64,000 nt of DNA. It comes from an uncultured delta proteobacterium (GTDB lineage: Bacteria > Desulfobacterota > Binatia > UBA9968). The position numbers were made by a program, and so were the translations under genes. Positions 28,300 to 44,636 of the stretch are shown piece after piece. Under the pieces are notes generated by a model. The model did no database searches. It was not told the DNA's origin and worked only from the letters and a program-made list of their open reading frames with translations. Location of the stretch: assembly GCA_963727625.1 (NCBI GenBank), contig CAVSHR010000012.1, forward strand, positions 576,001 to 640,000, read 5' to 3'. Position 1 is the stretch's first letter, and every line of letters begins with the position of its first letter.

Positions 28300-28669
28300 T
28301 GTCTCTGTCCGCAAACAGGATCGCTACGTGGCGAAGCGGGTCACTTGGGAGATGCCCACTGGAGGGGTTCATTCCGGGGAAAGCGTCGAGGATGCCGCGC
28401 AGCGAGAATTAGGAGAAGAGGTTGGTTACCAAGCAGGTCGCCTCAAATGGGTCTCAACCTATCACGCCAGCAAAAGCGTTATGGATGAAACCGCGCACCT
28501 CTTTTGGAGAAGACCTGGCGGAGCTTAGGCTCGATTCTGACGAACCCGAGTTCATCGAGGCGCAACCAGTTCCTTCAAAAAAGTTGTTCAAATGGTTCTT
28601 GCGAGCGAGATTCTGGACAGCATGACAGTTATAGCCATTCCTCATGCTGCCCGCATGAAAGGAATTTAG
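28300..28669 (+). pseudogene. Frameshifted, 5'-truncated NUDIX hydrolase (ADP-ribose pyrophosphatase-like)
   Basis: WEMPTGG..GESVEDAAQRELGEEVG Nudix box, continuing in other frames (DSDEPEFIE..; EILDSMTVIAI). Confidence 0.75.
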
Positions 28670-28678
28670 CGCCGTAAC

Positions 28679-29209
28679 TCAATGACGGTCGAATGGAGCC
28701 TGCGGCTCGTAGTCGTAGCGCACCAGCCACCAGTGTCCGCTGCGGCGCGCGAACATCCAGAAGTCGCGGTAGTAATGGTCGCCTCCCCACCCATGAAACT
28801 TCTGATTGATCTCCACGACCGCCGAATTATTGACAATGTAGATCCGATGGATCCGATCCTCAAAACGGATCTGTCCAATTTTACGATCGCGAAAGGCACC
28901 AAGGGCCTCGGCGCGGATGCCGGCATAATCGATCATGACTTTCGGCTTGTCCCAAGCCCGCTGTAGCGCGTCGGCAGCATAGGCCGACATGACCACGTTG
29001 ATATCCCTCCGTTCCCAGCCCTGCCCAACAGTCATGATCAGGCGCACGATTTCTGCTTCGTCTTGGTTGCGCGAGCTGTATTGGGCGATCGGCACTCCGG
29101 CCCCATGATCAGCCCAGCTCGTTTTTGCAGCAAAGACCAGAATGAAAAACAATAAGTTGGTGGCCACCACCATTTTAAACATCTCAAACGCGAAGAGTTT
29201 CTTCATCAT
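28679..29209 (-). CDS. Exported NTF2/SnoaL-like (DUF4440-like) protein
   Basis: Signal peptide; WERRDINVVMSAYAADA and C-terminal RRSGHWWLV beta pattern. Confidence 0.65.
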   Translation of the reverse strand: MMKKLFAFEMFKMVVATNLLFFILVFAAKTSWADHGAGVPIAQYSSRNQDEAEIVRLIMTVGQGWERRDINVVMSAYAADALQRAWDKPKVMIDYAGIRAEALGAFRDRKIGQIRFEDRIHRIYIVNNSAVVEINQKFHGWGGDHYYRDFWMFARRSGHWWLVRYDYEPQAPFDRH

Positions 29210-29943
29210 TTGTCCCTTTCTCTTATATCTTCTATCCCTTTGGTGCTGCAGGGCTGGATCGATGAAACCGGCGGCAACTCATGAGGTGGCAAGAAGATCG
29301 CGAGGTAACTTTCGGCTGGATCAAGCGGCATGAATTCGATCTGCCGGTAACCCACGGCCTCGAGCTCACAACGCAAAAGGGCGGGCGGGGTTCCATGATG
29401 CTGGGTCGGCCGATCGACGTCGACGATGGCAACCCGCCCAGCGGTCACAAGGGCGGGTTTCAGCCGGTAGAAGAATTCATAAGGATTTTCGATCTCGTGG
29501 TAGACGTGCGATAGGAGGGCGACATCAACGGAACCGGGCATCAACTTGGGATCATTGGGCTGTCCGAGCACCAATTTGACGCCAACCATCTCTTCCTGCT
29601 CAAGCCGCGCGGCGAGCCGTTTGAGGTAATCCGGTCTGACATCCTGCGCATATATAGTGGCTGAAGGACCCAGACGCCGCGCGAGCCGAACCGTATAATA
29701 ACCTGCGCCCGCACCGATGTCGGCGATCCTTGGGCCCGGTGCGAGGCCGAGATGGTCCATGACCCGCTCGGCCTCTCCGGTTTTGTCTCGTGTCTTCTCA
29801 TCCGAATATGCCGGCGCAACAATCGCCGCCACCGGCCGATCGGGTCTCGGAAAGACCAGCCGAACCTGCAGCAGCGCATCGCCGGCCCATAACAGACCGA
29901 TAGCCCCCAACGTCGGGATGAGATAGCGATGGACGCACAGCAT
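29206..29943 (-). CDS. Class I SAM-dependent methyltransferase
   Basis: IADIGAGAGYYT, YAQDV and HVYHEI motifs; overlaps the next gene by ATGA. Confidence 0.88.
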   Translation of the reverse strand: MLCVHRYLIPTLGAIGLLWAGDALLQVRLVFPRPDRPVAAIVAPAYSDEKTRDKTGEAERVMDHLGLAPGPRIADIGAGAGYYTVRLARRLGPSATIYAQDVRPDYLKRLAARLEQEEMVGVKLVLGQPNDPKLMPGSVDVALLSHVYHEIENPYEFFYRLKPALVTAGRVAIVDVDRPTQHHGTPPALLRCELEAVGYRQIEFMPLDPAESYLAIFLPPHELPPVSSIQPCSTKGIEDIRERDK

Positions 29944-30314: not shown

Positions 30315-31037
30315 ATGAAAGGCGCCCACCACTTATCAGAATCTCTCCTTCCCGACGCTCCAGTGCTACCTCGTTTTTTGTGTCCTAGTTCCATGGCCCA
30401 AACTGATCGGCGCATTTCTGGATTTTTTTGTGACCTTGCTTTATAGCGCCATCAATAGCGAATTGGGAAGACCGCCCACCCTAGGGGAGAGCCCTTTGAA
30501 TGTCTCCGGTCTCCATGCAGGCATCTTTCTAGTATCGCTGATTTTTGTGATTGACTGGGAGCTTGAGCGGTTCAATCTCAAAGGCGCCGGAGCGCCGTTA
30601 TTTATTCTACTCACAGGCAGCCTAGGCGCTCTGAGCGCGATGTCATACAGAAGGATTGCGTATCTCTGGCGAGTGCCCGAAGGAAACATGATCGGAATGC
30701 AGTGCCTGGCCATGGCTGCTGTCTTGATTTTTCCGATGCTATGGCTGCCCCGACGCTTAATTGGCGACCGCCGCAGCGGCTGGCTCTGGATCATCGGTCT
30801 TTCCTTCTCAGCCACGGCGATGTTTGCCTACACCATCATCCATGGAAATTGATCTATTCCGCCGATTTCGATCTGATCCAGCTCTACAATATCGTGGAAG
30901 ATCCCCAGGAGAGAAGAAATCTTTGGCAAGAAAATCGCCAACTTGCGGCTGAGATGGAAAGAGAGCTGATGGGCTATCTAAAAAAAGCGGCGGGAAAATC
31001 CTACCGGCCACTGCTTTCGGACGCTCCTGCCCGATAG
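30315..31037 (+). pseudogene. Membrane-anchored sulfatase/LTA-synthase-like remnant with frameshifts and deleted catalytic core
   Basis: TM N-terminus followed directly by a sulfatase C-terminal motif (IIHG/WKLIY...QLYNIVEDPQERRNL) across a frameshift at about 30845. Confidence 0.65.
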
Positions 31038-31239: not shown

Positions 31240-32892
31240 ATGCAAGCGACTGCTAAAGCGATCGGCGACCATTCTGCAGCAGAAATCAGGCAATTGGTTC
31301 GCGACAAGTATTCTGAAGTCGCGCTCAAGCCGGGCTCAAAATACAAGTTCAGGGTCGGTCGCGAGTATGCGATCGAGCTCGGCTATCCCCCTCAAAAGGT
31401 TCAAGCGCTTCCGGAGAAATTGGCTGAGGCCTTTACCGGCGTCTCTTCGTTCATGGCCCGTTTCGAGGATTTCGCTCCAGGAGATGTCGTCCTCGAGCTT
31501 GGATCCGGTGGAGGATTCGACAGCGCATTACTCGCCAAACGATTCGGCGCTGCGACAAAGGTCATTGGAGTCGATTTTTCTCTCGACATGATTCAAAGGG
31601 CAGCGCGATCTCTCGGCGCGCTGGAGCTTTGCCAGGTTAATTATACCCAGGCTGTGGCGGAGGAGCTTCCCGTCCGTGATAATTCAGTGGACTGGGTTGT
31701 CAGCAACGGGATCTTCAATCTCTCCCCGGAGAAGGAGAGAATCCTGTCCGAGATTCATCGGGTCCTAAAACCCAAGGGTCACGTGCTCTGTTCCGAGATC
31801 GTTCTCTATCAGGAGCCCACTCCGGAGGAGCGTCTCAATGAAGACGACTGGTTCAAGTGAATTGCCGGCGCAATGTCGGAAAAGTCTTTTCTGACCAAAT
31901 TCATCGAGGCTGGGTTCACCCGCATAGAGATCCTGGAGAATTCCGAGAATAAACGAACGCCAAACCGCAACGCCTACGTGGTTACTCTAGCCGCGCAGAA
32001 GGCGCCCGCGGCGTTACGGGCGCCTCTTGAGCAAAAAACCAAACCCGTCCTGAATCGGGAAAACGCAGCCGAAGTCTTGAAGGAATGTTGGGTTTTTCCG
32101 GTCGCGCCGGAGACCTGCAATCTGGCGTGCACCCATTGTCTTTATGGCGCTTCGCCACGATCGCGCAATCCTTACCGTGTCACGTCCGGCGAGCTGGGCG
32201 AATTACTGGCGCAGGTAAAATCCGTCGGTGCGAAACCGCATTTTTTGTTTACCGGCGGGGAGCCGACGCTGCACTCTGAACTCTACGATTTTCTACAAAC
32301 TTTTGATCGAGAGGGCTACTCGTTCCAGCTCATGACCAATGGAACTCGGATCCAGGAAGAAAGTGCCGAGCGTTTAGCGAAGCTGTCTCATCTGATCAAG
32401 GTGCAAGTATCACTGGAATCGGCGGACGCGAAAATCAACGATTCCATTTACGGCGCCGGACTGTACGGCAGGGTCCTCAAGGCAGTGAAAGTTCTCAAAG
32501 AAAAAAATGTCCCGGTGACACTGGCGGCAACAGCCATGGAGATCAACGAGCACGGTCTCTCCGCCATCGAAGAGTTGGCCGACGCCCAGGGAGTGGAATT
32601 GAAACAGATACTTTTGTACGAGCTCGGCGCAGCCAAAGAAAACGGCTTGAAACCGGCGCAGCAAATTCCAACCGACAACGGTCAAAGGGACAGAGAACTG
32701 ATGTGTGACAAAGGGGTCGCCTATTCCGAGGGAGCCTTCTACCCGTGTCCCGTGCTGGTCAAGGAGCCGCAGACGAAATTAGGCGATAGTTTAGAGCAGG
32801 CCTTGAGTCCGGAGTCACGCCGTAAAGTGACCGGGTTGCAGGAAACGCACGCTGCCTGTCAGGTTTGCCTTAAAGGCTCCACGTGAGCGTAG
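31240..32892 (+). CDS. Predicted selenoprotein: ArsM-like methyltransferase-radical SAM fusion, 550 aa, Sec207 and Sec549
   Basis: ORFs 31240-31860 and 31873-32886 are in one frame, split only by TGA in DWFK*IAGAM (ArsM W-x-x-C-x-x-GA). It carries ELGSGGGFD, CNLACTHC and TGGEP motifs. The C-terminus is HAACQVCLKGST*A-TAG. SECIS-like hairpins follow both TGAs. Confidence 0.8.
31858..31903 (+). promoter_or_regulatory. SECIS-like element 1
   Basis: Upper stem GTCGGAAAA/TTTTCTGAC (31875-31895, one G-U pair) with a GTC loop; TGAATT (31858-63) can pair with AATTCA (31898-903). Confidence 0.7.
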
Positions 32893-32896
32893 GCAA

Positions 32897-32913
32897 GCGC
32901 TCCGTAGGAGCGC
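32897..32913 (+). promoter_or_regulatory. SECIS-like element 2
   Basis: Perfect 7-bp stem GCGCTCC/GGAGCGC with a GTA loop, 17 nt long, after a 10-nt spacer from TGA 32884-86; no U-tract. Confidence 0.65.
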
Positions 32914-32967
32914 AAAAGAGAACGATAAAAACACATCCGGAACGGTAGGCGTTAAATCGGACAGGCA

Positions 32968-34029
32968 ATGAATTCAACCGACCCCAAGACTCGAATCGCC
33001 TATTTCAAGACCATCGATGGCCAAAGTCGTAGCGCGATGGCGACTCTCGATCCGGTCTGCCTCTACCTCGAGGTCAGCAACCAGTGCAACCTGTTATGCA
33101 AGACCTGTCCCATTACCTACGGCAAAGTGGAGGAACCCGCCTCGTTGAGCTTTGATCAGATCAAGCGCTTGGTCGCCCAATTCCCCACGGTCGAGCGCGT
33201 GGTGCTCCATGGTGTTGGAGAGCCGCTTCTCAATAGGGAACTGGCCAAAATTATTCTCTGGCTCAAGGGCAAGGGGATCTACGTTCTTTTCAATTCGAAC
33301 GGCACATTGATCAATAAGCGCTGGCGTGAAGCGCTCGTCGGATCGGGACTCGATGAAATCCGGCTCTCCCTTGACGCAGCAACGCCGGAGACTTTCGCGC
33401 GGGTGCGCGGCAAACGGCTCTTTGCCGTTGTCGTCAGGAATATCCAAGGCCTGATGGCCCTCAAGGCAGAGACAGGACTGCGCACACCGCTCGTTTCACT
33501 CTGGCTGACGGGGTTGAGAGAGACTCTGAAGGAGCTCTCGGATTTCGTCCGGTTGGGCCATTCTCTGGGGATCGACCGGGTATACCTCCAACGGCTAGTT
33601 TATTGGGACGGCAACGGCAATGATCGGCTGGCCCGTCCAGAGCAATCTCTGTTCAATTCCCTGCGAGAAGAAGGCGATCAGGTGATCAAGTCGGCGGAGG
33701 AATTGGCCCGTTCGCTGGGGATCTCTTTTGAAGCATCCGGAGCAACCACTCCTTCGACTAGCCTTGTGGGTGAAAACTTCGACCAACCCTGGTCAGCCTG
33801 CATGCGTCCCTGGACACTCATGTACATTAGCGCCCGGGGAAGCGCATTTCCCTGTTGCATTGCCCCTTTCTCGACGGCAGATCTAAGCCATCTCTCTCTC
33901 GGGAACGCGTTCACACAGGATCTGGCCTCCATATGGAATGGAAAGCGTTATCAAGAATTCCGCCGCCGGCTCCTGAGCGCTGAACCGCCTGAATGCTGCA
34001 AAGGTTGTGGCGCCTGTTGGAGTTTGTGA
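32968..34029 (+). CDS. Radical SAM/SPASM domain protein
   Basis: CNLLCKTC and GVGEPLL motifs; SPASM CMRPW...GSAFPCC...LGN..IWNG..CCKGCGAC. Confidence 0.92.
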   Translation: MNSTDPKTRIAYFKTIDGQSRSAMATLDPVCLYLEVSNQCNLLCKTCPITYGKVEEPASLSFDQIKRLVAQFPTVERVVLHGVGEPLLNRELAKIILWLKGKGIYVLFNSNGTLINKRWREALVGSGLDEIRLSLDAATPETFARVRGKRLFAVVVRNIQGLMALKAETGLRTPLVSLWLTGLRETLKELSDFVRLGHSLGIDRVYLQRLVYWDGNGNDRLARPEQSLFNSLREEGDQVIKSAEELARSLGISFEASGATTPSTSLVGENFDQPWSACMRPWTLMYISARGSAFPCCIAPFSTADLSHLSLGNAFTQDLASIWNGKRYQEFRRRLLSAEPPECCKGCGACWSL

Positions 34030-34033
34030 TCGC

Positions 34034-34768
34034 ATGAAGATCGAAAGCGGCGGCAAGAACAAAAGTCGAGCTCTGGTGGTCGTTGCCAAAGCGCCGTTAC
34101 AGGGTCTTGTCAAAACGCGGCTTTATTCCTACCTCAGTCCTGTAGACGCCGCCGGCCTCTACGAGTGTTTGCTCGGCGATATCGTCTCCAAGTTGGAGAG
34201 CTACGAAAAGAGCGAATTTTGGCTTGCCTTTGCGCCGGGAGGTGAAGACTATTTCCGCCGAAATTACTCGGCGATGAGACTGCTCGCTCAGCGCGGCAAA
34301 GATCTCGGCGAGCGGCTCCATCACGTTTTTGTGGATCTCTTCCGCAGGGGTTACAGCGAAGTCGTCATCGCCGATAGCGACAGTCCCACGGTGCCGCTTT
34401 CGTCTATCGATCAAGCCTATCAACAACTCAACGAACAAGAATGTGATCTGGTCCTGGGACCATCGGACGACGGCGGTTATTACCTCATAGGCCTCAAGCG
34501 TGCCACGGAACGGATTTTTTACGATATCCCGTGGAGTACCCATAGAGTGCTCGATACCACCTTTAAGAGGGCGGCTGAGCTGGGGTTAAGCGCGGGGCTT
34601 CTCCCTCCTGCCTATGACATCGACATAGAGGATGACCTCAGGAGACTGTGGAATGATTTTTTGGCTCTCAAGCACCTCCGGGCGCTAGCCCCGAGAACCT
34701 ATGACTACCTGAACAATGTCCTCGGCGCCGGATCTTTGCAGGTTCGTGCTTTAACCGAAATCGATTAG
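34034..34768 (+). CDS. DUF2064/TIGR04282-type glycosyltransferase-like protein (rSAM/selenodomain-associated)
   Basis: AKAP..G.VKTRL, QRGKDLGERL, DSDSP, LGPSDDGGYYLIG, IPWST and DIDIEDDL motifs. Confidence 0.9.
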   Translation: MKIESGGKNKSRALVVVAKAPLQGLVKTRLYSYLSPVDAAGLYECLLGDIVSKLESYEKSEFWLAFAPGGEDYFRRNYSAMRLLAQRGKDLGERLHHVFVDLFRRGYSEVVIADSDSPTVPLSSIDQAYQQLNEQECDLVLGPSDDGGYYLIGLKRATERIFYDIPWSTHRVLDTTFKRAAELGLSAGLLPPAYDIDIEDDLRRLWNDFLALKHLRALAPRTYDYLNNVLGAGSLQVRALTEID

Positions 34769-34778
34769 GAGGCTCAGA

Positions 34779-35318
34779 ATGGCCGCAGCCGTTAGTTCCG
34801 TCGGGATTCGAGACCTGGCTCTTTGGGCTGGTCTTTATCGAATTGCGCTCGGGATTATGTGGCTGCAAATGGCCTTACAAAAAGCGCCCTGGATCATGGG
34901 GCCCGAGGGAAGGCCCTACGGTTGGCTCTACGGTTACATCTGGAAGGAAATCAATAATCCGACCTTTACTTTTTACACCGAGTTTCTGAAAAATATAGTG
35001 CTTCCCAATTTTTACTATTTTGGTTTGTTGACCTTCGTCGTTGAGATCGCAATCGGGGTGTCACTGGTGCTGGGTTTTTTAGTTCCTCTGATCGGCGGTC
35101 TCGGCGGCGCCCTCATGCAAACCAATATCATGCTCGGCAGTTACAGCATTCCGAGCGAGTGGTTTTGGCTTTGGCCCATGCTGATCGGCAGTCACGTCAT
35201 CTTCATGATGGGTAGAGCCGGCCGCCGTCTCGGATTGGATGGCCTCCTTTCAAGCTCTCTTGAGCACTCCCCTGATACAGGAGGCAAGTTGAGACGATTC
35301 TTGACCTATGTCGTGTAG
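34779..35318 (+). CDS. DoxX/TQO small subunit (DoxD)-like membrane protein
   Basis: RIALGIMWL..ALQK, EIAIGVSLVLG, EWFW and AGRRLGLDG motifs; AGGAGG RBS. Confidence 0.8.
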   Translation: MAAAVSSVGIRDLALWAGLYRIALGIMWLQMALQKAPWIMGPEGRPYGWLYGYIWKEINNPTFTFYTEFLKNIVLPNFYYFGLLTFVVEIAIGVSLVLGFLVPLIGGLGGALMQTNIMLGSYSIPSEWFWLWPMLIGSHVIFMMGRAGRRLGLDGLLSSSLEHSPDTGGKLRRFLTYVV

Positions 35319-35347
35319 TTGCATTCGCGCAGTCGGGCTATAGCAGG

Positions 35348-36853
35348 ATGATCCGATTCATTACCAGAAACAAAGTCTGGGTATTAGGACTGCTCTCCGC
35401 AGCCATCTACGGCATGAATTTGCGCATGGCTGACGTGCTGGTCCGCCTTGAGATCCTCGATTCTGCACCGGACCCCATAGCGTCTTACTTGATCCAAATC
35501 GCGCCTCTGAGTCTAATCTATTTTCTGGCCGTGTGGATGACGGCACGTGCGCAATACGCCAAGAAGACTTTGACGCCCATTATCCTGTTTGCGCTGTTGT
35601 TCCGACTGCCTCTGATCCTTTTAGAGCCCGCCCTCTCCAGTGACGTCTATCGCTACCTTTGGGAAGGGAAAGTGCAAATTGTTGCCGGAATGAATCCCTA
35701 CGTCGTGCCGCCGGCGGACGACCGCCTTGCCTCTCTACGGGATCAAGCGATTTATCCTCACATCAATCGCAAGGAGGCGCCGACGATCTATCCTGCAGGC
35801 GCGCAGCTCCTTTTCGCCCTACTACACAAGGCCGGCGTCGAAAGCCCCCAGGCATTCAAAGCTCTGTCCCTTGTTGCCGATGCTCTATCGCTGCTTCTCC
35901 TGCTTTTAATCCTTAAGCGACTCCATTTGCCGCTTGACCGCGTTATCATCTACGCGTGGAATCCTCTCCTTATCTATGAGTTCTTTTGGAGCGGCCACCT
36001 GGAAAGCTTCATGTTGCCTCCCCTGCTGGGCTTTATCTATTTTACCCTTCGGGGTTGGGTGCTAGCTGCCGGTGTCGCCCTCGGCCTCGCGACAGCGATT
36101 AAACTAGTCCCCCTGTTTCTTCTGGCAACCGTGCCTCCGGGCAAGAGGATTAGGACAGTAATCCCTTTTGTCTTTGTTCTGGGGCTTGCTTATATCTTTT
36201 ACGCCGCAGCGGGGACGAGGATCCTGGGCTTTCTTCCAACCTATTTCTCTGACCCATACGAGATTTTCAATCTCGGCATCGTCCAACTAGGTTTGTTACG
36301 GGTGGTGCAGTCATTTTCATTTCCCGTCTCTTGGGTTCGTAACATTCTTCTCGCCCTCCTGCTTGCGATCCTAATGATGATCTCACGGCGCGCCCCCAAT
36401 TCCCCTGCGGACATTATCGGGAGAAGCTACGCGACCTTTAGCGCCTATCTCTTGCTCATCTATCCCGCTTTTCATCCCTGGTACTTTTGTGCGCTTGTGC
36501 CCTTGTTATGCTTCGTCCCGTCGCGAGCTTGGATCTGCTTCTCCTTGCTGCTCCCTCTGTCTTACTTTAAATACCTCACGCCAGACGGAACGATGCCATT
36601 GTGGATTACGCTCGCAGAATTTGCCCCTTTGTATCTGCTCCTGGTCCGGGAACACGGCCGGTTTCCAATTTGGCTAAGAAAGCGCCAGGCGTCCAGCGGC
36701 GCTATAAACGAGAAATGCGACGGCAAAGAAATTCCAAGCCGCGAACTAAAAGAGCGCCTCCTCTTAGACGATCAGACCGGAGAATTACTGCCTTGCATGT
36801 CGGCGATAACCGCCTTAGCCACAGTCAGGCGAAGCCGTAAAAGAAGGGAATAG
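35348..36853 (+). CDS. GT-C membrane glycosyltransferase (GT87/DUF2029-like)
   Basis: LSSDVYRYLWEG, NPY..PP, PTIYP, YAWNPL, GHLE and HPWY motifs. Confidence 0.85.
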   Translation: MIRFITRNKVWVLGLLSAAIYGMNLRMADVLVRLEILDSAPDPIASYLIQIAPLSLIYFLAVWMTARAQYAKKTLTPIILFALLFRLPLILLEPALSSDVYRYLWEGKVQIVAGMNPYVVPPADDRLASLRDQAIYPHINRKEAPTIYPAGAQLLFALLHKAGVESPQAFKALSLVADALSLLLLLLILKRLHLPLDRVIIYAWNPLLIYEFFWSGHLESFMLPPLLGFIYFTLRGWVLAAGVALGLATAIKLVPLFLLATVPPGKRIRTVIPFVFVLGLAYIFYAAAGTRILGFLPTYFSDPYEIFNLGIVQLGLLRVVQSFSFPVSWVRNILLALLLAILMMISRRAPNSPADIIGRSYATFSAYLLLIYPAFHPWYFCALVPLLCFVPSRAWICFSLLLPLSYFKYLTPDGTMPLWITLAEFAPLYLLLVREHGRFPIWLRKRQASSGAINEKCDGKEIPSRELKERLLLDDQTGELLPCMSAITALATVRRSRKRRE

Positions 36854-36857
36854 CTCA

Positions 36858-38435
36858 GTGGCAACCGGCATTTTAGAATCAATTTTTTACTACAGCCTCG
36901 GCGCGCTCTACCTTCTGTGCCTGAGCGGGCTCTTTCTCTACGGCACCAACTGCTATGTTCTGCTCCTGCTCTTTCGCCGAAACCGCAGCAAAGGCGAGAA
37001 GGAGTATCGCGACGCTCTCGATAACTTTGAGAACTCCCCCTGGAAAAACGACCTCCCTCAGATCACGGTACAACTGCCGATCTACAACGAGCGCTATGTT
37101 GTCGCTCGGCTCATGAAAGCTGTCAGCGCCCTGGATTACCCGCGCGACCGATTGGAGATTCAGCTCCTCGACGACTCCACCGATGATTCCGTGGAGATCA
37201 TCAGCCGGCTGGTCGCGGATTATCGGAAAGAGGGCTTCCCTATCGTCCATCTCCAGCGAGCAACCCGACAGGGCTTTAAAGCAGGCGCGCTTAGGGAAGG
37301 CATGGAGACAGCGCGTGGAGAATTTTTCGCCATTTTCGATGCCGACTTCGTTCCCCCGCCTGACTTTCTGCGCAAAACCATTCCTTACTTCTTGAATGCC
37401 AAAGTCGGTATGGTGCAGGCGCGGTGGAGTCACATCAATCCCAACTATTCGCTTCTGACACGCGCGCAGTCGATTGGAATCGACTCGCATTTTTCCATCG
37501 AGCAAGGCGCCCGAGCCTGGTCGGGCCTTTTTCTCAACTTCAACGGCACCGCAGGTGTATGGAGACGGCAAGCCATCGTTGAAGCTGGAGGCTGGCAAGC
37601 CGATACTCTCACCGAGGACATGGACCTAAGCTATCGAGCTCAACTAGCGGGTTGGCGGATGAAGTATCTCTTGGAAGTGGCGTGCCCGGCAGAACTGCCG
37701 GTGCAGGTGGCTGCATTTAAATCGCAACAGTTTCGTTGGGCAAAAGGCTCCATCCAAACGGCACGCAAAATAATGCCCGCTCTGCTTAGGGCGCCCTGCT
37801 CAAATTTCGCCAAGTGGCAGGCCATGCTCCACATGACTCACTACGTCATCCATCCGCTGATGCTGGTCACTATTTTGCTTTCCTATCCGGTAATCCTTAT
37901 CCAGGATACTGAGTCAAGCCCCTGGCTGTTGGCCGGCGCTTTCATTTTATTTCTATCGGCGACGTTGGCCCCCTCGACTTTGTATCTTGCGTCGCAAAGA
38001 TTTCTCTACCCGGACTGGCGCACCCGGATACGTTGGATCTCGCTTATGACACTGATCGGCACGGGCCTCTCGTTAAACAACGCGCGAGCGATTTTGGAAG
38101 GGCTGTTCCTTTCCGGCGGAAACTTCGTGCGCACTCCGAAGTTCGGCGTCTTTCCTGGCGACGATTTGCGCGGACGGATAATAGGCTATGGTCTCAAGAT
38201 GGGTATGCTGCCATGGCTCGAGTTGGCTATCGGAGTTTATGCGCTATTTGCACTGACTCAAGCCATTAAAACTCCGGGCATACTGATCAGCCCATTCCTG
38301 CTGATGTACACGTGTGGTTTTTTCTATATCGCGCTCAAGGGAATCGGCGAATCGCTGGACTGGAAGATCGGCAAGTACCGACCCCCACCACCGCCCACCG
38401 CATCCACTGTGATCGAGCAACACGATGGCACCTGA
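36858..38435 (+). CDS. Processive GT2 glycosyltransferase (cellulose synthase-like/CslA-type)
   Basis: TVQLPIYNE, LDDSTD, GFKAGAL, FDADF, TLTEDMDL and QQFRWAKG (D,D,D,QxxRW) motifs. Confidence 0.92.
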   Translation: MATGILESIFYYSLGALYLLCLSGLFLYGTNCYVLLLLFRRNRSKGEKEYRDALDNFENSPWKNDLPQITVQLPIYNERYVVARLMKAVSALDYPRDRLEIQLLDDSTDDSVEIISRLVADYRKEGFPIVHLQRATRQGFKAGALREGMETARGEFFAIFDADFVPPPDFLRKTIPYFLNAKVGMVQARWSHINPNYSLLTRAQSIGIDSHFSIEQGARAWSGLFLNFNGTAGVWRRQAIVEAGGWQADTLTEDMDLSYRAQLAGWRMKYLLEVACPAELPVQVAAFKSQQFRWAKGSIQTARKIMPALLRAPCSNFAKWQAMLHMTHYVIHPLMLVTILLSYPVILIQDTESSPWLLAGAFILFLSATLAPSTLYLASQRFLYPDWRTRIRWISLMTLIGTGLSLNNARAILEGLFLSGGNFVRTPKFGVFPGDDLRGRIIGYGLKMGMLPWLELAIGVYALFALTQAIKTPGILISPFLLMYTCGFFYIALKGIGESLDWKIGKYRPPPPPTASTVIEQHDGT

Positions 38436-38450
38436 GAAGACTCCTTCGAT

Positions 38451-40091
38451 ATGAGATTCTTAAAAATGTCCTTCCGCGCCAACTGCCTGATACGAGCGGC
38501 GGCCCTTCTGTTTCTGCTTGCGACCCTGACGCCGCTCGCTGTGGTCCTGGGGCAGAAACTTTTGCCAAGCCCGTGGCCGACCTACCGCGGCGATCTCAAG
38601 CGCACAGGGCGAAGCGATTATAAAGGTCCAACGACCAATCAGCTCCGCTGGGTTTTCTCGACTGGGCTCGCCGAGAAGCGTGGAGGCATCGAGACAGATC
38701 CCGTCATCGGTCCTGACGGAACCGTTTACATCGGCGCCAACAACGGAATTATTTACGCGTTGAACCCTGAAGACGGCTCGATACGCTGGGTTTTTCCCAC
38801 GGCTTTTGACACCTTCGCGATCTATTCCAGTCCGAGCGTCGACCAGCAGGGACTCGTCTACTTCGGCGCCAAAGATGGCAACGTTTATGCGCTGAGGGCG
38901 CCAAAACGCGGAATCATGGGGGAATTGGTCTGGTCTCTCAACCTCGGCACTACAATACAGACTTCACCGGCTTTTACACCGGACGGAACTCTCGTGATTG
39001 GTGCCGACGACTGGGCTTACTATGGGATCGCACCTCCCCGGGACGGGACTGGCCCCAGGATAAAGTGGCGCTTCCAAACGCAGGGTACATTGATTACGTC
39101 GCCGGCCGTCGACTCTGACGGGACGATTTTCGTGGCGTCGATGGATGGAAAAATTTATGCTCTGGAGCCGCCAAAGGATGCGAGCCAGCAGCCGGTCAAA
39201 GTCCGCTGGAGCTTTTCTTCGGGCGCGCGCGACGATCGGGGAGGCTTTGAAAACGCGCCCGCCGTCGACAAGCAAGGGACTCTTTACATGGGCGGAAATG
39301 ACGGAATTTTTTACGCTCTGGACAGCAAGACAGGCAAAGTCAAGTGGACGTTCGATGGCGTCGCGCGTTCGGGTTATCGAACCTACGCGATCTTTTCTTC
39401 TGCCGCGATCGGCCCGGATCGGACAGTATACTTTGGTGGGAAGAACGGCGATCTTTACGTAATTCGCCAGCAGCAGGCTTTCTTTCGCTCAGGCCCGCAA
39501 GTCCTCTGGCGGTACAAACTGGGAGCAGGGATTCAATCTTCTCCGCTCCTCGCGGCTGACGGAACCGTTTATCTTGGTGACGAGCGTGGCACCTTGCACG
39601 CCATCAGACCGCCTGCTTCCGGAGAAGCGGGAACAACCTTGTGGAAATTTTCCACAAAGGGAACATTGATCTCTTCCCCTGCTCTTGCTGCTGACGGAAC
39701 GCTCTACGAAGGTTCCATGGACGGGAAACTCTATGCCTTTAAGTCTGGGGCCGCAAAGCCCGGCGCCGAGGGTCCTTTCTCAGGAACCTGGTATGGAACC
39801 TATGAAAGCCAGCTAATCTCTGGGCAGGTGAGAGCTGTCCTTCGACAAGAAGGCACACAGGTTTGGTCCGCTTGGTTCCTTGAGGGAGTAGGGCGCGGAG
39901 AGGGACAGGCAACTGCCCTGGACAACCGTCTGATATTTTCACTGCCCATAAAAACGGCCCGCTGTCGGGGAACTGTTCGCGGCGAGGGTCAAAGGGACGG
40001 GAATCGAATCCGCGTCGATGTCCGGATTGATCAATGCGGAGGAAAAATCGTAGGCGGTAAGCTCACGATGCGCAATAGCTTGAAAAGGTAA
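38451..40091 (+). CDS. Exported PQQ-like beta-propeller repeat protein with C-terminal beta domain
   Basis: Signal peptide, WPTYRGD, repeated SSP...DGT.Y.G..DG..YA..W units. Confidence 0.88.
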   Translation: MRFLKMSFRANCLIRAAALLFLLATLTPLAVVLGQKLLPSPWPTYRGDLKRTGRSDYKGPTTNQLRWVFSTGLAEKRGGIETDPVIGPDGTVYIGANNGIIYALNPEDGSIRWVFPTAFDTFAIYSSPSVDQQGLVYFGAKDGNVYALRAPKRGIMGELVWSLNLGTTIQTSPAFTPDGTLVIGADDWAYYGIAPPRDGTGPRIKWRFQTQGTLITSPAVDSDGTIFVASMDGKIYALEPPKDASQQPVKVRWSFSSGARDDRGGFENAPAVDKQGTLYMGGNDGIFYALDSKTGKVKWTFDGVARSGYRTYAIFSSAAIGPDRTVYFGGKNGDLYVIRQQQAFFRSGPQVLWRYKLGAGIQSSPLLAADGTVYLGDERGTLHAIRPPASGEAGTTLWKFSTKGTLISSPALAADGTLYEGSMDGKLYAFKSGAAKPGAEGPFSGTWYGTYESQLISGQVRAVLRQEGTQVWSAWFLEGVGRGEGQATALDNRLIFSLPIKTARCRGTVRGEGQRDGNRIRVDVRIDQCGGKIVGGKLTMRNSLKR

Positions 40092-40135
40092 ACTGTGGGT
40101 CATGCTCGCTGAACATAGACACCACGACCTTCCCA

Positions 40136-40837
40136 ATGAAAATTTCACTCATCATTCCCGCTCTTGACGAGGAAGAACCTCTGCCTGACGTGTTGGCATC
40201 GGTTCCGCCGGGCGCAGTTGATGAAATTATCGTGGTGGATAACGGGAGCACGGACGGCACCGCGGCTGTCGCTTGTCGTGCTGGAGCACTGGTGGTCATA
40301 GAACCGAGAAAGGGTTATGGCGCGGCCTGCTGGTCCGGTTTTAAGGCCGCCGAAGACGCTGATATTTTGGTGTTTATGGACGGCGATGGAAGTTTCCAGG
40401 CAGGCGAGATCCCTCGACTCACCGAGCCTATCGCGAGTGGCACTGCGGATCTGGTGCTAGGGAGCCGAGCCCTAGGGGCCACAGATGCAGGGGCAATTCC
40501 TCTCCACGCTCGTTTGGGGAACAGCCTCGTTGCCACTATTATCGGTTTTATCTCGGCAACTCGAATCTCGGACCTGGGACCTTTCCGGGCCATCGGTTGC
40601 AAGAGTTTAGAAAACCTAAATATGCAGGAGCGCACGCACGGCTGGCCCTGTGAGATGATCATTAAGTCAGCCAAGTTCGGATACCGGGTCCTCGAGGTTC
40701 CTGTAACTTATCGCCCCCGCACCGGCGGAAAATCAAAAGTCTCCGGCACAATCGCCGGGAGTATCAGTGCTGCCATTGCTATGCTCAGAGTGACCCTCCG
40801 GTGGTTATTTTGGAATCCAAACCGCAACATATCTTAA
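40136..40837 (+). CDS. GT2 glycosyltransferase (polyprenol-phosphate sugar synthase-like)
   Basis: IIPALDEE, VVDNGSTDGT, FMDGDGS, DLGPFRA and SKVSGT motifs. Confidence 0.9.
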   Translation: MKISLIIPALDEEEPLPDVLASVPPGAVDEIIVVDNGSTDGTAAVACRAGALVVIEPRKGYGAACWSGFKAAEDADILVFMDGDGSFQAGEIPRLTEPIASGTADLVLGSRALGATDAGAIPLHARLGNSLVATIIGFISATRISDLGPFRAIGCKSLENLNMQERTHGWPCEMIIKSAKFGYRVLEVPVTYRPRTGGKSKVSGTIAGSISAAIAMLRVTLRWLFWNPNRNIS

Positions 40838-43345: not shown

Positions 43346-44548
43346 TTATCCCGCCGTCATTGAAAGTTTTGTACCGCGCCGCAAATCTGTGGCCAAAAAT
43401 ACCAGCGATGCGAGCGGCACCAAAGGCGGCAAATGAGGAAAGGCGACCGTGTTCACCAAGGGAAAAATCCCGACTAGGACCAGCGCTAAAGAAATCACGG
43501 GCGGCACGGGCTCGCCAGCGGATTTCACAAGAAACGCAGCAGGCACGATGAGCAACACAAGGTCGTGACTGTGCAGATGAGGCGCCACCAGGATCAACCC
43601 GATAAGAATAACCGCCCAGTCATAGAGAGTCATCCCCCCGGACCCATGGCGCGGCCAACTGTGAATGACAATCACGGCCATCACCGCAAGCGTGCCCAAC
43701 CACCAAACATAGTCTCGCCACGGCGCGCCCAAGAAATAATCTGCGAGCGCTCGCAAATTTTGCATTCCCTCGGGTTGGATATGCAAGGTATCTTCTCCGG
43801 ACGCGGCCCGGCGCGAAAGCTCCCAGTAAGCCTGCATCCCATCCAGCCCGACGACGAGCAAAGACACGAGCCCCAGGGATGCCATCACAATTAGAGCGAG
43901 GCTCACTTGGCGCCACCGTTTTCTAACAAGCAATATCAAAAGCGGAGCAGCCGCGAGCTGCGGTTTAAAAAACAGCAGGCCGGACCAAATCCCGCACTCG
44001 CGCCGCGTGGAGCCGCGCAAAGCCCTCACGAAGAGAACCAGCAACAAAAGCGCGATAAAGGACGTTTGGGCTTCGAGCAACGCGTAATGAACGCCGTAGT
44101 TGCAAAACGTTGCCAGGATCAGCCAGTTTACCTGATGCCGGTTCAATTCTAGATGCTGTATGAGAATCTTTATTGCGGCGAACAGCAGGACCAAATTGAC
44201 AACGCTCATCATTACGAAGGCTGCCGAAAACGGCAACCAGGCCAACGGCACCAAAACCGCGGCAAAAAACGGCGGGTAAAAAAATGGCAAGACCCAACTG
44301 CCGCGCGACGGGTCTATCGGCTCCTGAACCAAGCGCTGCTTTTCGAGATCGTACAGCGACCCTCGGTCGGTCCACGTGAGCTTTGCCGCCGTGTAAAGAC
44401 TCATGAAGTCAGGTTTGTAAGCGCTGCAAGACGGACTGTGATAGCGAACGATAGTCCACCAGCAAGGACCGATGACTGCGCTCATTGCGAGACCCAACCC
44501 CAGCGCGAGAGCAGCGATTCGATTATTCCAGACTTTCGGCGAAGACAT
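43346..44548 (-). CDS. GT87/DUF2029 membrane protein
   Basis: DF.SLY, FFYPPFFA, AQTS, FKPQL and HDL motifs; multi-TM. Confidence 0.82.
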   Translation of the reverse strand: MSSPKVWNNRIAALALGLGLAMSAVIGPCWWTIVRYHSPSCSAYKPDFMSLYTAAKLTWTDRGSLYDLEKQRLVQEPIDPSRGSWVLPFFYPPFFAAVLVPLAWLPFSAAFVMMSVVNLVLLFAAIKILIQHLELNRHQVNWLILATFCNYGVHYALLEAQTSFIALLLLVLFVRALRGSTRRECGIWSGLLFFKPQLAAAPLLILLVRKRWRQVSLALIVMASLGLVSLLVVGLDGMQAYWELSRRAASGEDTLHIQPEGMQNLRALADYFLGAPWRDYVWWLGTLAVMAVIVIHSWPRHGSGGMTLYDWAVILIGLILVAPHLHSHDLVLLIVPAAFLVKSAGEPVPPVISLALVLVGIFPLVNTVAFPHLPPLVPLASLVFLATDLRRGTKLSMTAG

Positions 44549-44636
44549 CGACCACAAAAGCTAGCGCGGACATGGAAACCGTGAACCACGGGTCGGCGCG
44601 CGGAGTCGCTCGCGAGCGAGAATTGCTACGGGACAA

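What the first reader, a model, noticed from the sequence alone, without database searches (positions are those of the whole stretch)
31240..40837. Eight-gene selenium-dependent biosynthetic operon: possible new metalloid-glyco(lipid) or surface-glycan pathway
Seen: tightly packed co-directional genes for the Sec-MT/rSAM fusion, rSAM-SPASM, DUF2064 transferase, DoxX, GT87-like GT-C, processive GT2, an exported beta-propeller and a polyprenol-P-type GT2. Decayed genes lie upstream, and codons look more AT-ending than the flanks (qualitative). Known: ArsM, ArsS and TIGR04282/DUF2064 co-occur in arsenosugar (rSAM/selenodomain) clusters, and a GT2 lipid-P-sugar synthase plus a GT-C is the usual route for periplasmic glycosylation. 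Inference: a methylated and adenosylated (or radical-modified) As/Se/S sugar is made, loaded on a lipid carrier and transferred to an exported glycan, lipid or the beta-propeller protein. The fused two-Sec enzyme plus an extra SPASM enzyme and DoxX differs from the described arsM-arsS pathway.
Basis: partly seen in the sequence, partly recalled or inferred. Interest (0 to 1): 0.82.

Follow-up and report, generated by a model that had tools for sequence, protein, structure and literature searches.

The report
Two-selenium enzyme heading a sugar-capping operon
A little-studied bacterium carries a conserved eight-gene operon led by an enzyme with two selenocysteines that protein databases list only in pieces; it probably makes an unusual methylated (arsenic-, sulfur- or selenium-bearing) sugar and attaches it to the cell surface, but the product has not been identified.

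Summary
Eight tightly packed genes lie at 31240-40837. Gene 1 is a 550-aa methyltransferase/radical-SAM fusion with two in-frame TGAs (U207, U549), conserved in 17 of 17 relatives covering each site. Each has a SECIS-like hairpin, and the genome has selA, selB, selD and tRNA-Sec. The fusion is absent from a 2026 table of 119 prokaryotic selenoprotein families; 69 database relatives appear only as the rSAM half. It is not ArsM-ArsS: ArsS scores 44 bits against a cut-off of 300, three of four ArsM cysteines are missing, TIGR04283 is absent, and a canonical arsenosugar cluster lies elsewhere in the genome. Genes 2-5 and 8 form a wider cassette (BtrN-type twitch rSAM, DUF2064, DoxX, GT-C, polyprenol-P GT2), also seen in Methylobacterium and Miltoncostaea, that parallels the mycobacterial methylthioxylose capping route. 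Best reading: gene 1 makes a 5'-substituted adenosine whose pentose is activated, modified, lipid-loaded and transferred to an envelope glycan. Odds: arsenic 0.4, sulfur/selenium 0.2, uncoupled 0.2. No biochemistry supports any product yet. New variant of a known kind; interest 0.68.

The parts
31240..32892 (+). g1: 550-aa double selenoprotein; ArsM-fold class I methyltransferase (about residues 1-260) fused to a radical SAM domain (CxxxCxxC 293-300; C489, C503, C540, C543; C-terminal U549)
   Evidence: rSAM/twitch-type fold of the C-terminal half, model pLDDT 80
31858..31860 (+). TGA = Sec207, at the position of ArsM's last catalytic cysteine (CmArsM Cys224)
   Evidence: alignment to solved ArsM; TGA in 17 of 17 loci
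31875..31895 (+). SECIS-like hairpin 1 (9 pairs, 3-nt loop starting with G), inside the coding frame
   Evidence: one stem pair with a change on both sides
32884..32886 (+). TGA = Sec549, followed by one codon and a TAG stop
   Evidence: TGA-(Ala/Gly)-TAA/TAG in 17 of 17 loci; Cys at the like place in the nearest rSAM family
32897..32913 (+). SECIS-like hairpin 2 in the non-coding gap after g1
   Evidence: G-loop hairpin in 16 of 17 loci vs 51 of 1163 TGA-ended long ORFs of the genome; formal covariation weak
32968..34029 (+). g2: radical SAM enzyme with a BtrN-type twitch domain; probable sugar dehydrogenase or epimerase
   Evidence: best PDB relative BtrN, E 5e-18
34034..34768 (+). g3: DUF2064/TIGR04282, CofC-like putative nucleotidyl- or glycosyltransferase
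34779..35318 (+). g4: DoxX/DoxD-like membrane protein
   Evidence: weak hits only; conserved next to g2
35348..36853 (+). g5: multi-spanning GT-C-like (GT87-like) glycosyltransferase
   Evidence: homologs named 'glycosyltransferase 87 family'
36858..38435 (+). g6: cellulose-synthase-type membrane GT2 (DxD, ED, QQFRW)
38451..40091 (+). g7: probably exported PQQ/BamB-like beta-propeller with a C-terminal domain of about 110 aa
   Evidence: found in 7 of 401 class genomes, all 7 carrying the g1 family
40136..40837 (+). g8: polyprenol-phosphate sugar synthase-type GT2
   Evidence: best PDB relative dolichol-P-mannose synthase
29206..29943 (-). second class I methyltransferase with a hydrophobic N-terminus; beside g1 in 7 related loci, so likely part of the cluster
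28679..29209 (-). SnoaL/NTF2-like protein with a hydrophobic N-terminus; in the cluster in 5 related loci
28301..28666 (+). broken NUDIX (NudE-like) gene; present in 6 related loci; a NUDIX domain is fused to DUF2064 in Miltoncostaea
30343..31031 (+). internally deleted remnant (three pieces) of an 888-aa membrane sulfatase-family gene that is whole in L004

Best explanation
The operon makes a 5-deoxy-5-(methylarsenic)-pentose and uses it to cap a cell-envelope glycoconjugate, joining ArsM/ArsS-like chemistry to a methylthioxylose-type capping route. Shown: the gene anatomy, the Sec codons and the family likenesses. All chemical steps below are inferred. (1) The g1 methyltransferase holds an already methylated As(III) species on its single Sec207 and methylates it; the C-terminal U549 tail may supply the second ligand or carry the group to the other domain. 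(2) The g1 rSAM domain adds the 5'-deoxyadenosyl radical to As, as ArsS does to DMAs(III). (3) A housekeeping MTA phosphorylase releases the pentose-1-phosphate. (4) g3 activates it as an NDP-sugar. (5) g2 epimerises or oxidises it. (6) g8 loads it on a polyprenol phosphate. (7) g5 transfers it outside the membrane to an acceptor that g6 builds, with g7 as binder or scaffold. g4 may serve as the electron sink or source for g2.
For: The MT domain's best family hits are Sec-ArsM fusions and its best PDB hit is ArsM, with U207 on the last catalytic Cys. DMAs(III) is held by that single Cys in CmArsM (PMC6138428, passages), and a one-Cys ArsM is active (PMC8649762, passages). The nearest profile relative of the g1 rSAM (HHalign E 1e-48) has Cys where g1 has U549. 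It sits directly behind full-Cys ArsM in L091, L105, L113, L118 and L121, with DUF2064 in L105, L113 and L117, and is fused to ArsM in P0235. The g1 rSAM aligns end to end with ArsS including the C-terminal cysteines (prob. 96%). ArsS adenosylates DMAs(III) to DDMAA (PMC13598754, passages). g1 rSAM + DUF2064 is the pair kept even in the reduced loci L049, L053 and L054. L087 joins GT-C/GT2 and DUF2064 to a radical SAM of the family fused to ArsM in L085, L100 and L101. MtxS makes a lipid-linked donor and MtxT transfers it (PMC8780516, PMC12088412, passages). The genome has an MTA phosphorylase over the cut-off.
Against: The MT domain lacks the equivalents of ArsM Cys44, Cys72 and Cys174 in all g1 loci, while all four are needed for As(III) methylation in CmArsM. 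No arsenic resistance or uptake family was found among 45 flanking proteins scanned at E<=1e-12. A canonical ArsS already exists in this genome and in 7 of 16 related genomes. The back-half cassette occurs with no ArsM-like or g1-like gene in Methylobacterium. Three reduced loci lack the MT domain, and three database relatives carry a TusA-like domain instead. The quick tree leaves the g1 family's relation to the ArsM-linked families open. No phosphorylase is in the cluster. No enzyme of the operon has been assayed.
Confidence: 0.4

Rival explanations
1. Same route, but the heteroatom is sulfur or selenium. The single-Sec methyltransferase makes a methylthio or methylseleno group on a selenol carrier, the rSAM domain transfers it to the 5'-deoxyadenosyl radical, and the operon caps the envelope with a methylthio- or methylseleno-pentose akin to methylthioxylose.
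For: Loss of the arsenic-binding cysteines. TusA-like domains replace the MT domain in P0069, P0070 and P0096. The only characterised pathway with this GT2 + GT-C logic and a methylated heteroatom sugar uses sulfur. The Miltoncostaea cassette lies beside selB-selA-selD. No arsenic genes flank the loci.
Against: Methylthioadenosine is available from ordinary SAM metabolism without a radical enzyme (own knowledge). Two of the three TusA-like domains show no cysteine at the usual place (read; motif recalled). The nearest rSAM relatives are tied to full-Cys ArsM.
Confidence: 0.2
2. Two loosely linked modules. Genes 2-8 decorate the envelope with a sugar taken from ordinary NDP-sugar metabolism and modified by g2. 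g1 (with g3 at most) is an interchangeable metalloid-handling or redox selenoenzyme whose product does not enter the glycan.
For: The core g2/DUF2064/GT-C/GT2 set appears with different front ends: none in Methylobacterium, an Rv1681-like rSAM in Miltoncostaea, another rSAM in G221. In G301 the rSAM + g3 and g6-g8 lie on different contigs and g2 was not found.
Against: g1 directly precedes g2 in every full-length g1 locus with room downstream. 9 of 10 g2 carriers and 7 of 7 g7 carriers among 401 class genomes also carry the g1 family (kin are not independent). Interchangeable front ends also fit different caps made on one chassis.
Confidence: 0.2
3. The product is a small arsenosugar or arsenolipid, a second route parallel to the canonical cluster, rather than a cap on a surface glycan; g6 and g7 are accessory.
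For: DUF2064 is the tightest partner; family-f9 loci lack g6-g8 next to g1-g5; arsenolipids with 5-dimethylarsinoyl-ribose are known in algae (PMC10456119, passages).
Against: A GT-C with a polyprenol-P synthase points to transfer outside the membrane (established GT-C biology); TIGR04283 is absent from the operon.
Confidence: 0.12
4. The TGAs are true stops: g1 is two genes, or U549 is an ordinary stop.
For: Databases call the halves separately. Formal covariation of hairpin 2 is weak: RNAalifold found no consensus, and 71% of cells pair vs 66% shuffled and 67% for a slid control. selA in 13 of 16 carriers equals the class background of 328 of 401.
Against: TGA is invariant at an ArsM catalytic-Cys position in 17 of 17 loci. 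The residues after U207 complete the methyltransferase fold. TGA is followed by a conserved small codon and a second stop in 17 of 17. The hairpin is present in 16 of 17 vs 51 of 1163. Cys stands at the like place in relatives.
Confidence: 0.04

Closest known systems
ArsM + ArsS arsenosugar pathway (NCBIfam NF038099, TIGR04167, TIGR04282, TIGR04283)
   Same: ArsM-fold methyltransferase followed by a radical SAM enzyme with a C-terminal Cys/Sec tail; a TIGR04282 gene over the cut-off.
   Different: Fused; two Sec; the rSAM is a separate family (44 bits vs 300, no DUF3641); three ArsM cysteines absent; no TIGR04283; adds a BtrN-type rSAM, DoxX, GT-C, two GT2s and a beta-propeller. The canonical cluster sits elsewhere in the same genome (G000:C9, about 367-377 kb).
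Methylthioxylose capping of mycobacterial lipoarabinomannan (MtxS Rv0539, MtxT Rv0541c)
   Same: A GT2 that makes a polyprenol-P-linked donor plus a membrane transferase that caps a glycan with a 5-substituted pentose. Recalled, not from a call: a DUF2064 gene (Rv0540), an MTA phosphorylase and an epimerase lie in that cluster.
   Different: No methyltransferase/rSAM front end there; here a radical SAM twitch enzyme stands where an NAD-type epimerase is recalled, the phosphorylase is outside the cluster, and the acceptor is unknown. Direct sequence homology to MtxS/MtxT was not tested.
Double-selenoprotein methyltransferases (NF041537 ArsM/AhpD, NF041536 ArsM/DUF2284, NF047649 MTase/UXPK-star)
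   Same: Same Sec-bearing ArsM-like domain (UxxG) followed by a second Sec-bearing domain.
   Different: The second domain is a radical SAM enzyme; scores 189/510, 170/575 and 184/460; this architecture is not in Table 1 of PMC13188914.
BtrN and other twitch radical SAM sugar enzymes
   Same: g2 carries the four twitch cysteines in register with BtrN.
   Different: Low identity; substrate and reaction type unknown; lies in an envelope cassette, not an antibiotic cluster.
Rv1681-family radical SAM (NF049973) with Rv1679/Rv1680-like neighbours
   Same: TusA-like domain + rSAM design, as in P0069; an Rv1681-like gene heads the Miltoncostaea version of the cassette.
   Different: g1 scores 65 vs 380; no acyl-CoA dehydrogenase or PhnD-like binding protein in this operon.

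Membership tests
ArsM-ArsS arsenosugar cassette | Radical SAM over the TIGR04167 cut-off | tested here: not met
   44.2 bits vs 300 for g1; 447 for the C9 gene
ArsM-ArsS arsenosugar cassette | DUF3641 (PF12345) C-terminal domain | tested here: not met
   no hit for g1 at E<=0.01; 184 bits for the C9 ArsS
ArsM-ArsS arsenosugar cassette | TIGR04282 gene | tested here: met
   173.3 vs 134
ArsM-ArsS arsenosugar cassette | TIGR04283 gene | tested here: not met
   g8 45, g6 22.7 vs 182
ArsM-ArsS arsenosugar cassette | Formation of DDMAA from DMAs(III) and SAM | not testable with these tools
   needs an enzyme assay
Canonical As(III) methyltransferase ArsM | Four conserved cysteines (CmArsM 44, 72, 174, 224) | tested here: not met
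   only the last is present, as Sec (definition from PMC6138428)
Canonical As(III) methyltransferase ArsM | NF008823 or NF038099 over cut-off | tested here: not met
   167 vs 263 and 71.9 vs 400
Sec-ArsM double selenoproteins (NF041536, NF041537, NF047649) | UxxG Sec motif in an ArsM-like domain | tested here: met
   U207-I-A-G; motif listed in PMC13188914 Table 1
Sec-ArsM double selenoproteins (NF041536, NF041537, NF047649) | The family's own second domain and whole-model cut-off | tested here: not met
   170/575, 189/510, 184/460; matches cover the MT domain only
Selenoprotein | Conserved in-frame TGA at Cys-equivalent sites, downstream hairpin, Sec machinery in the genome | tested here: met
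   covariation test alone inconclusive
Methylthioxylose-type capping pathway | Polyprenol-P sugar synthase-type GT2 | tested here: met
   g8 best PDB hit dolichol-P-mannose synthase, E 4e-13; likeness, not activity
Methylthioxylose-type capping pathway | GT-C transferase | tested here: inconclusive
   g5 GT87 18.7 bits, under cut-off 25; homologs annotated GT87
Methylthioxylose-type capping pathway | MTA phosphorylase and NAD-type epimerase in the cluster (feature recalled) | tested here: not met
   neither among the eight genes; an MTA phosphorylase lies on another contig
Methylthioxylose-type capping pathway | Orthology to MtxS and MtxT | not tested
BtrN-type twitch radical SAM (g2) | CxxxCxxC plus four twitch cysteines in register with BtrN | tested here: met
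   C278, C296, C344, C347 invariant in 9 of 9 sequences and aligned to BtrN
Rv1681 family radical SAM | NF049973 over cut-off | tested here: not met
   65.3 vs 380

The most novel reading that the evidence does not exclude
g1 is a Sec-to-Sec relay enzyme that builds a carbon-arsenic bond and finishes it by methylation, giving a cationic trimethylarsonio-pentose. The operon displays it as a cap on a surface glycan or on the exported beta-propeller: an arsenic-decorated bacterial cell envelope. The DUF2064/twitch-rSAM/GT-C/GT2 cassette would then be a general chassis that installs different 5-substituted pentose caps (S, Se, As) depending on the front-end enzyme.
Probability: 0.2. Interest if true: 0.9.

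Novelty: new variant of a known kind. Interest (0 to 1): 0.68.

Why it matters
It adds a selenoprotein architecture that gene callers break in two, so it is invisible in protein databases. It ties two poorly understood pathways together: the unknown late steps of arsenosugar synthesis and methylthio-sugar capping share DUF2064 and a lipid-carrier route. If right, it gives DUF2064, an orphan twitch-rSAM family and the single-Sec 'arsenite methyltransferases' testable substrates, and it predicts metalloid-capped envelope glycans in Binatia and Tectomicrobia. The core cassette is in culturable Methylobacterium, so the chassis can be studied now.

Tried and rejected
Canonical ArsM-ArsS membership: rejected. 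Selenosugar or selenoneine-type synthesis: no such family was hit by any of the eight genes, and selD lies with selA/selB on another contig. A TGA inside g7 relatives looked like a third Sec but is the normal stop. selA co-occurrence as support: uninformative, 13 of 16 vs 328 of 401. Consensus folding of hairpin 2 gave no structure and a weak covariation signal. The full-length g1 model from one sequence was unusable (pLDDT 40), so the distance between the two Sec residues is untested. Fold searches of the rSAM half gave generic SPASM/twitch enzymes (SkfB Z 23.0, rmsd 2.7, 259 aligned; BlsE Z 22.1, rmsd 2.9, 249 aligned) and no substrate. No Atlas look-alike result exists for g1; for g2 it gave only generic rSAM/SPASM clusters. 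The tree was the quick version only; deep branches are open. Promoter and terminator scans were at chance level. The Tectomicrobia phylum search reached only 2 genomes. Angala 2017 and Haft & Tolstoy 2025 were not held; the second could mention this fusion, although the review table that cites it does not. No supplements were read.


Full report
Observation. The region 31240-40837 holds eight co-directional genes separated by 4-75 nt. Table 11 breaks the first into a 206-aa methyltransferase and a 337-aa radical SAM ORF; with TGA read as Sec it is one 550-aa protein with U207 and U549. The genome encodes selA, selB and selD over their cut-offs and a tRNA-Sec. Of 22 loci examined, all 17 that hold the first motif have TGA there. 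All 17 that reach the C-terminus have TGA, one small codon, then TAA or TAG. A hairpin whose loop starts with G follows U549 in 16 of 17 loci (15 at offset 19-27), against 51 (20 at that offset) of 1163 TGA-ended long ORFs of the genome. I set this criterion after seeing the hairpins, and the loci are kin. Formal covariation is weak. U207 aligns with the last catalytic cysteine of solved ArsM. The nearest rSAM family has Cys at the place of U549. I take both Sec as very likely.

Distribution. The search for related loci gave nine relatives in records titled Binatia, Deltaproteobacteria and Tectomicrobia, which places the host near Binatia by inference. Among 401 class genomes, 13 carry the g1 rSAM family at E<1e-100 (10 fused, 3 without the MT domain), none of them among the 21 congeners. 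g2 is in 10 of 401, of which 9 carry g1. g7 is in 7 of 401, all g1 carriers. Gene order is kept wherever contigs allow: all eight genes in L048 and L006 (g3 moved upstream in L006), seven in L007 and L051, five in L055, and rSAM + g3 only in L049, L053 and L054. A second methyltransferase, a SnoaL-like gene and a NUDIX gene belong to the cluster in relatives; here they lie upstream, the NUDIX broken, beside a deleted sulfatase-family gene. GC3 is modestly low. With the patchy spread this suggests lateral movement, which is inferred.

Not in print, as far as searched. The 69 database relatives at 50% identity or more are all the rSAM half alone (8000 candidates of 302-963 aa scored). At 50% clustering only 17 of 1.84 billion representatives reach E<=1e-30. 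Table 1 of PMC13188914 (section 7, parts 1-2 of 3 read; 119 families) lists Sec-ArsM fusions with AhpD, DUF2284 and UXPK-star but none with a radical SAM domain. 'DUF2064' occurs in no held paper. Searches showed no description of this operon in their listings. Haft & Tolstoy 2025 and Angala 2017 could not be read.

It is not the ArsM-ArsS cassette. g1 scores 44 bits on TIGR04167 (cut-off 300) and lacks DUF3641; neither GT2 is TIGR04283. The same genome has a canonical cluster on contig C9 with a full-Cys ArsM-like gene, ArsS (447 bits), TIGR04283 and TIGR04282. Seven of 16 related genomes also hold ArsS over the cut-off. The g1 MT domain has Gly where ArsM has Cys174, lacks the Cys72 motif and has no N-terminal cysteine. 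In CmArsM all four cysteines are needed for As(III), the last two for MAs(III), and DMAs(III) rests on the last alone (PMC6138428, passages). A one-Cys ArsM is nevertheless active (PMC8649762, passages). So g1 fails membership but may still work like ArsM + ArsS. Its rSAM half aligns end to end with ArsS and much better with an unnamed family (E 1e-48) that follows full-Cys ArsM and DUF2064 in metagenome loci or is fused to ArsM. A quick tree of 38 rows makes the g1 family its own clade (SH-aLRT 99) but leaves its sister open.

The back half is a wider cassette. g2 (about 50% identity), DUF2064, a GT87-like gene and a g8-like GT2 form an operon on two Methylobacterium plasmids, with a cytochrome b/molybdopterin oxidoreductase pair and no g1. 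L006 has a similar pair. Miltoncostaea has the set plus DoxX and an Rv1681-like rSAM beside selB-selA-selD, with NUDIX fused to DUF2064. G221 has it with yet another rSAM. Pseudoalteromonas has g6-, g5-, g8-, DUF2064- and TIGR04283-like genes together. g2's best solved relative is the sugar dehydrogenase BtrN, with the four twitch cysteines in register. g8 is closest to dolichol-P-mannose synthase and g6 to cellulose synthase. An earlier scan note pointed me to mycobacterial methylthioxylose capping. Two papers confirm that MtxS makes the lipid-linked donor and MtxT transfers it (PMC8780516, PMC12088412, passages; also PMC8081860, passages). That a DUF2064 gene, a phosphorylase and an epimerase lie in that cluster is recalled, not from a call.

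Mechanism. The ArsS product DDMAA (PMC13598754, passages) and methylthioadenosine are both 5'-substituted adenosines. The simplest reading is one route: make the substituted adenosine (g1), release the pentose-1-phosphate (MTA phosphorylase on contig C4), activate it (g3), alter it (g2, with g4 as a possible redox partner), load it on polyprenol-P (g8) and transfer it (g5) to an acceptor made by g6 and bound by g7. Every chemical step is inferred. Arsenic is favoured by the relatives of both g1 domains (0.4 for an envelope cap, 0.12 for a small arsenosugar or lipid). Sulfur or selenium is favoured by the lost cysteines, the TusA-fused forms and the absence of arsenic genes among 45 scanned flanking proteins (0.2). 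An uncoupled reading is favoured by cassettes without g1 (0.2).

Verdict. A real, conserved operon with a selenoprotein architecture not found in the sources searched, built from known kinds of parts and of unknown product: new variant of a known kind, interest 0.68.

Noticed in passing
G000:C9:367375-377545 (L013:7375-17545, minus strand): Canonical arsenosugar-type cluster in the same genome: full-Cys ArsM-like gene, ArsS (Cys form), a PiT-like transporter (read from sequence), a flavin halogenase-like gene, a TVP38/MerA-like oxidoreductase, DUF547, TIGR04283 and TIGR04282.
   Followed up: partly
G000:C9:271662-272441 (L014): A stand-alone Sec-only ArsM-like methyltransferase (WAAUIGGA) with a downstream hairpin; this Cys-poor subfamily is common in the class (many one-TGA hits).
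   Followed up: partly
L138:4893-5740 (Miltoncostaea oceani plasmid): The Rv1681-like radical SAM gene ends TGA-GCG-TGA followed by a GC-rich hairpin, next to selB-selA-selD; it may be an unannotated selenoprotein.
   Followed up: no
L077, L105, L113, L114, L118, L121, L132, L136; P0115, P0235: An unnamed radical SAM family ending CxxCxxxGxxC sits with ArsM, DUF2064, a metallophosphoesterase and a flavin oxidoreductase, and is fused to either of ArsM or the oxidoreductase in some proteins.
   Followed up: partly
P0069, P0070, P0096: g1-family rSAM proteins with an N-terminal TusA-like domain in place of the methyltransferase; they end at the same column, so probably also at a Sec codon; no DNA context seen.
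   Followed up: partly
P0103: A 272-aa AT-rich-looking distant relative of the g1 rSAM ending CKICLSGIT at the same column; possible further selenoprotein.
   Followed up: no
window 43346-44557 (-): A second, canonical GT87 gene (91.6 bits) 2.5 kb downstream on the other strand; not seen in the related loci.
   Followed up: no
window 36700-36853: The last 50-60 residues of g5 are not conserved and vary in length among relatives (459-501 aa).
   Followed up: partly
G000:C4:526357-528773: The genome's MTA phosphorylase lies about 1 kb from a g8-like GT2 (29% identity).
   Followed up: no
L139:10993-19616 (Pseudoalteromonas plasmid): g6-like GT2, GT87, a flavoprotein/ferredoxin membrane fusion, g8-like GT2, DUF2064 and a TIGR04283-like gene form an operon with no radical SAM gene in the stretch.
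   Followed up: no
L170, L171, L172: In family-f9 genomes the g8-like GT2 lies elsewhere, beside a TIGR04283-like GT2 and genes that look like selenoprotein B (GrdB-type) relatives by sequence.
   Followed up: no
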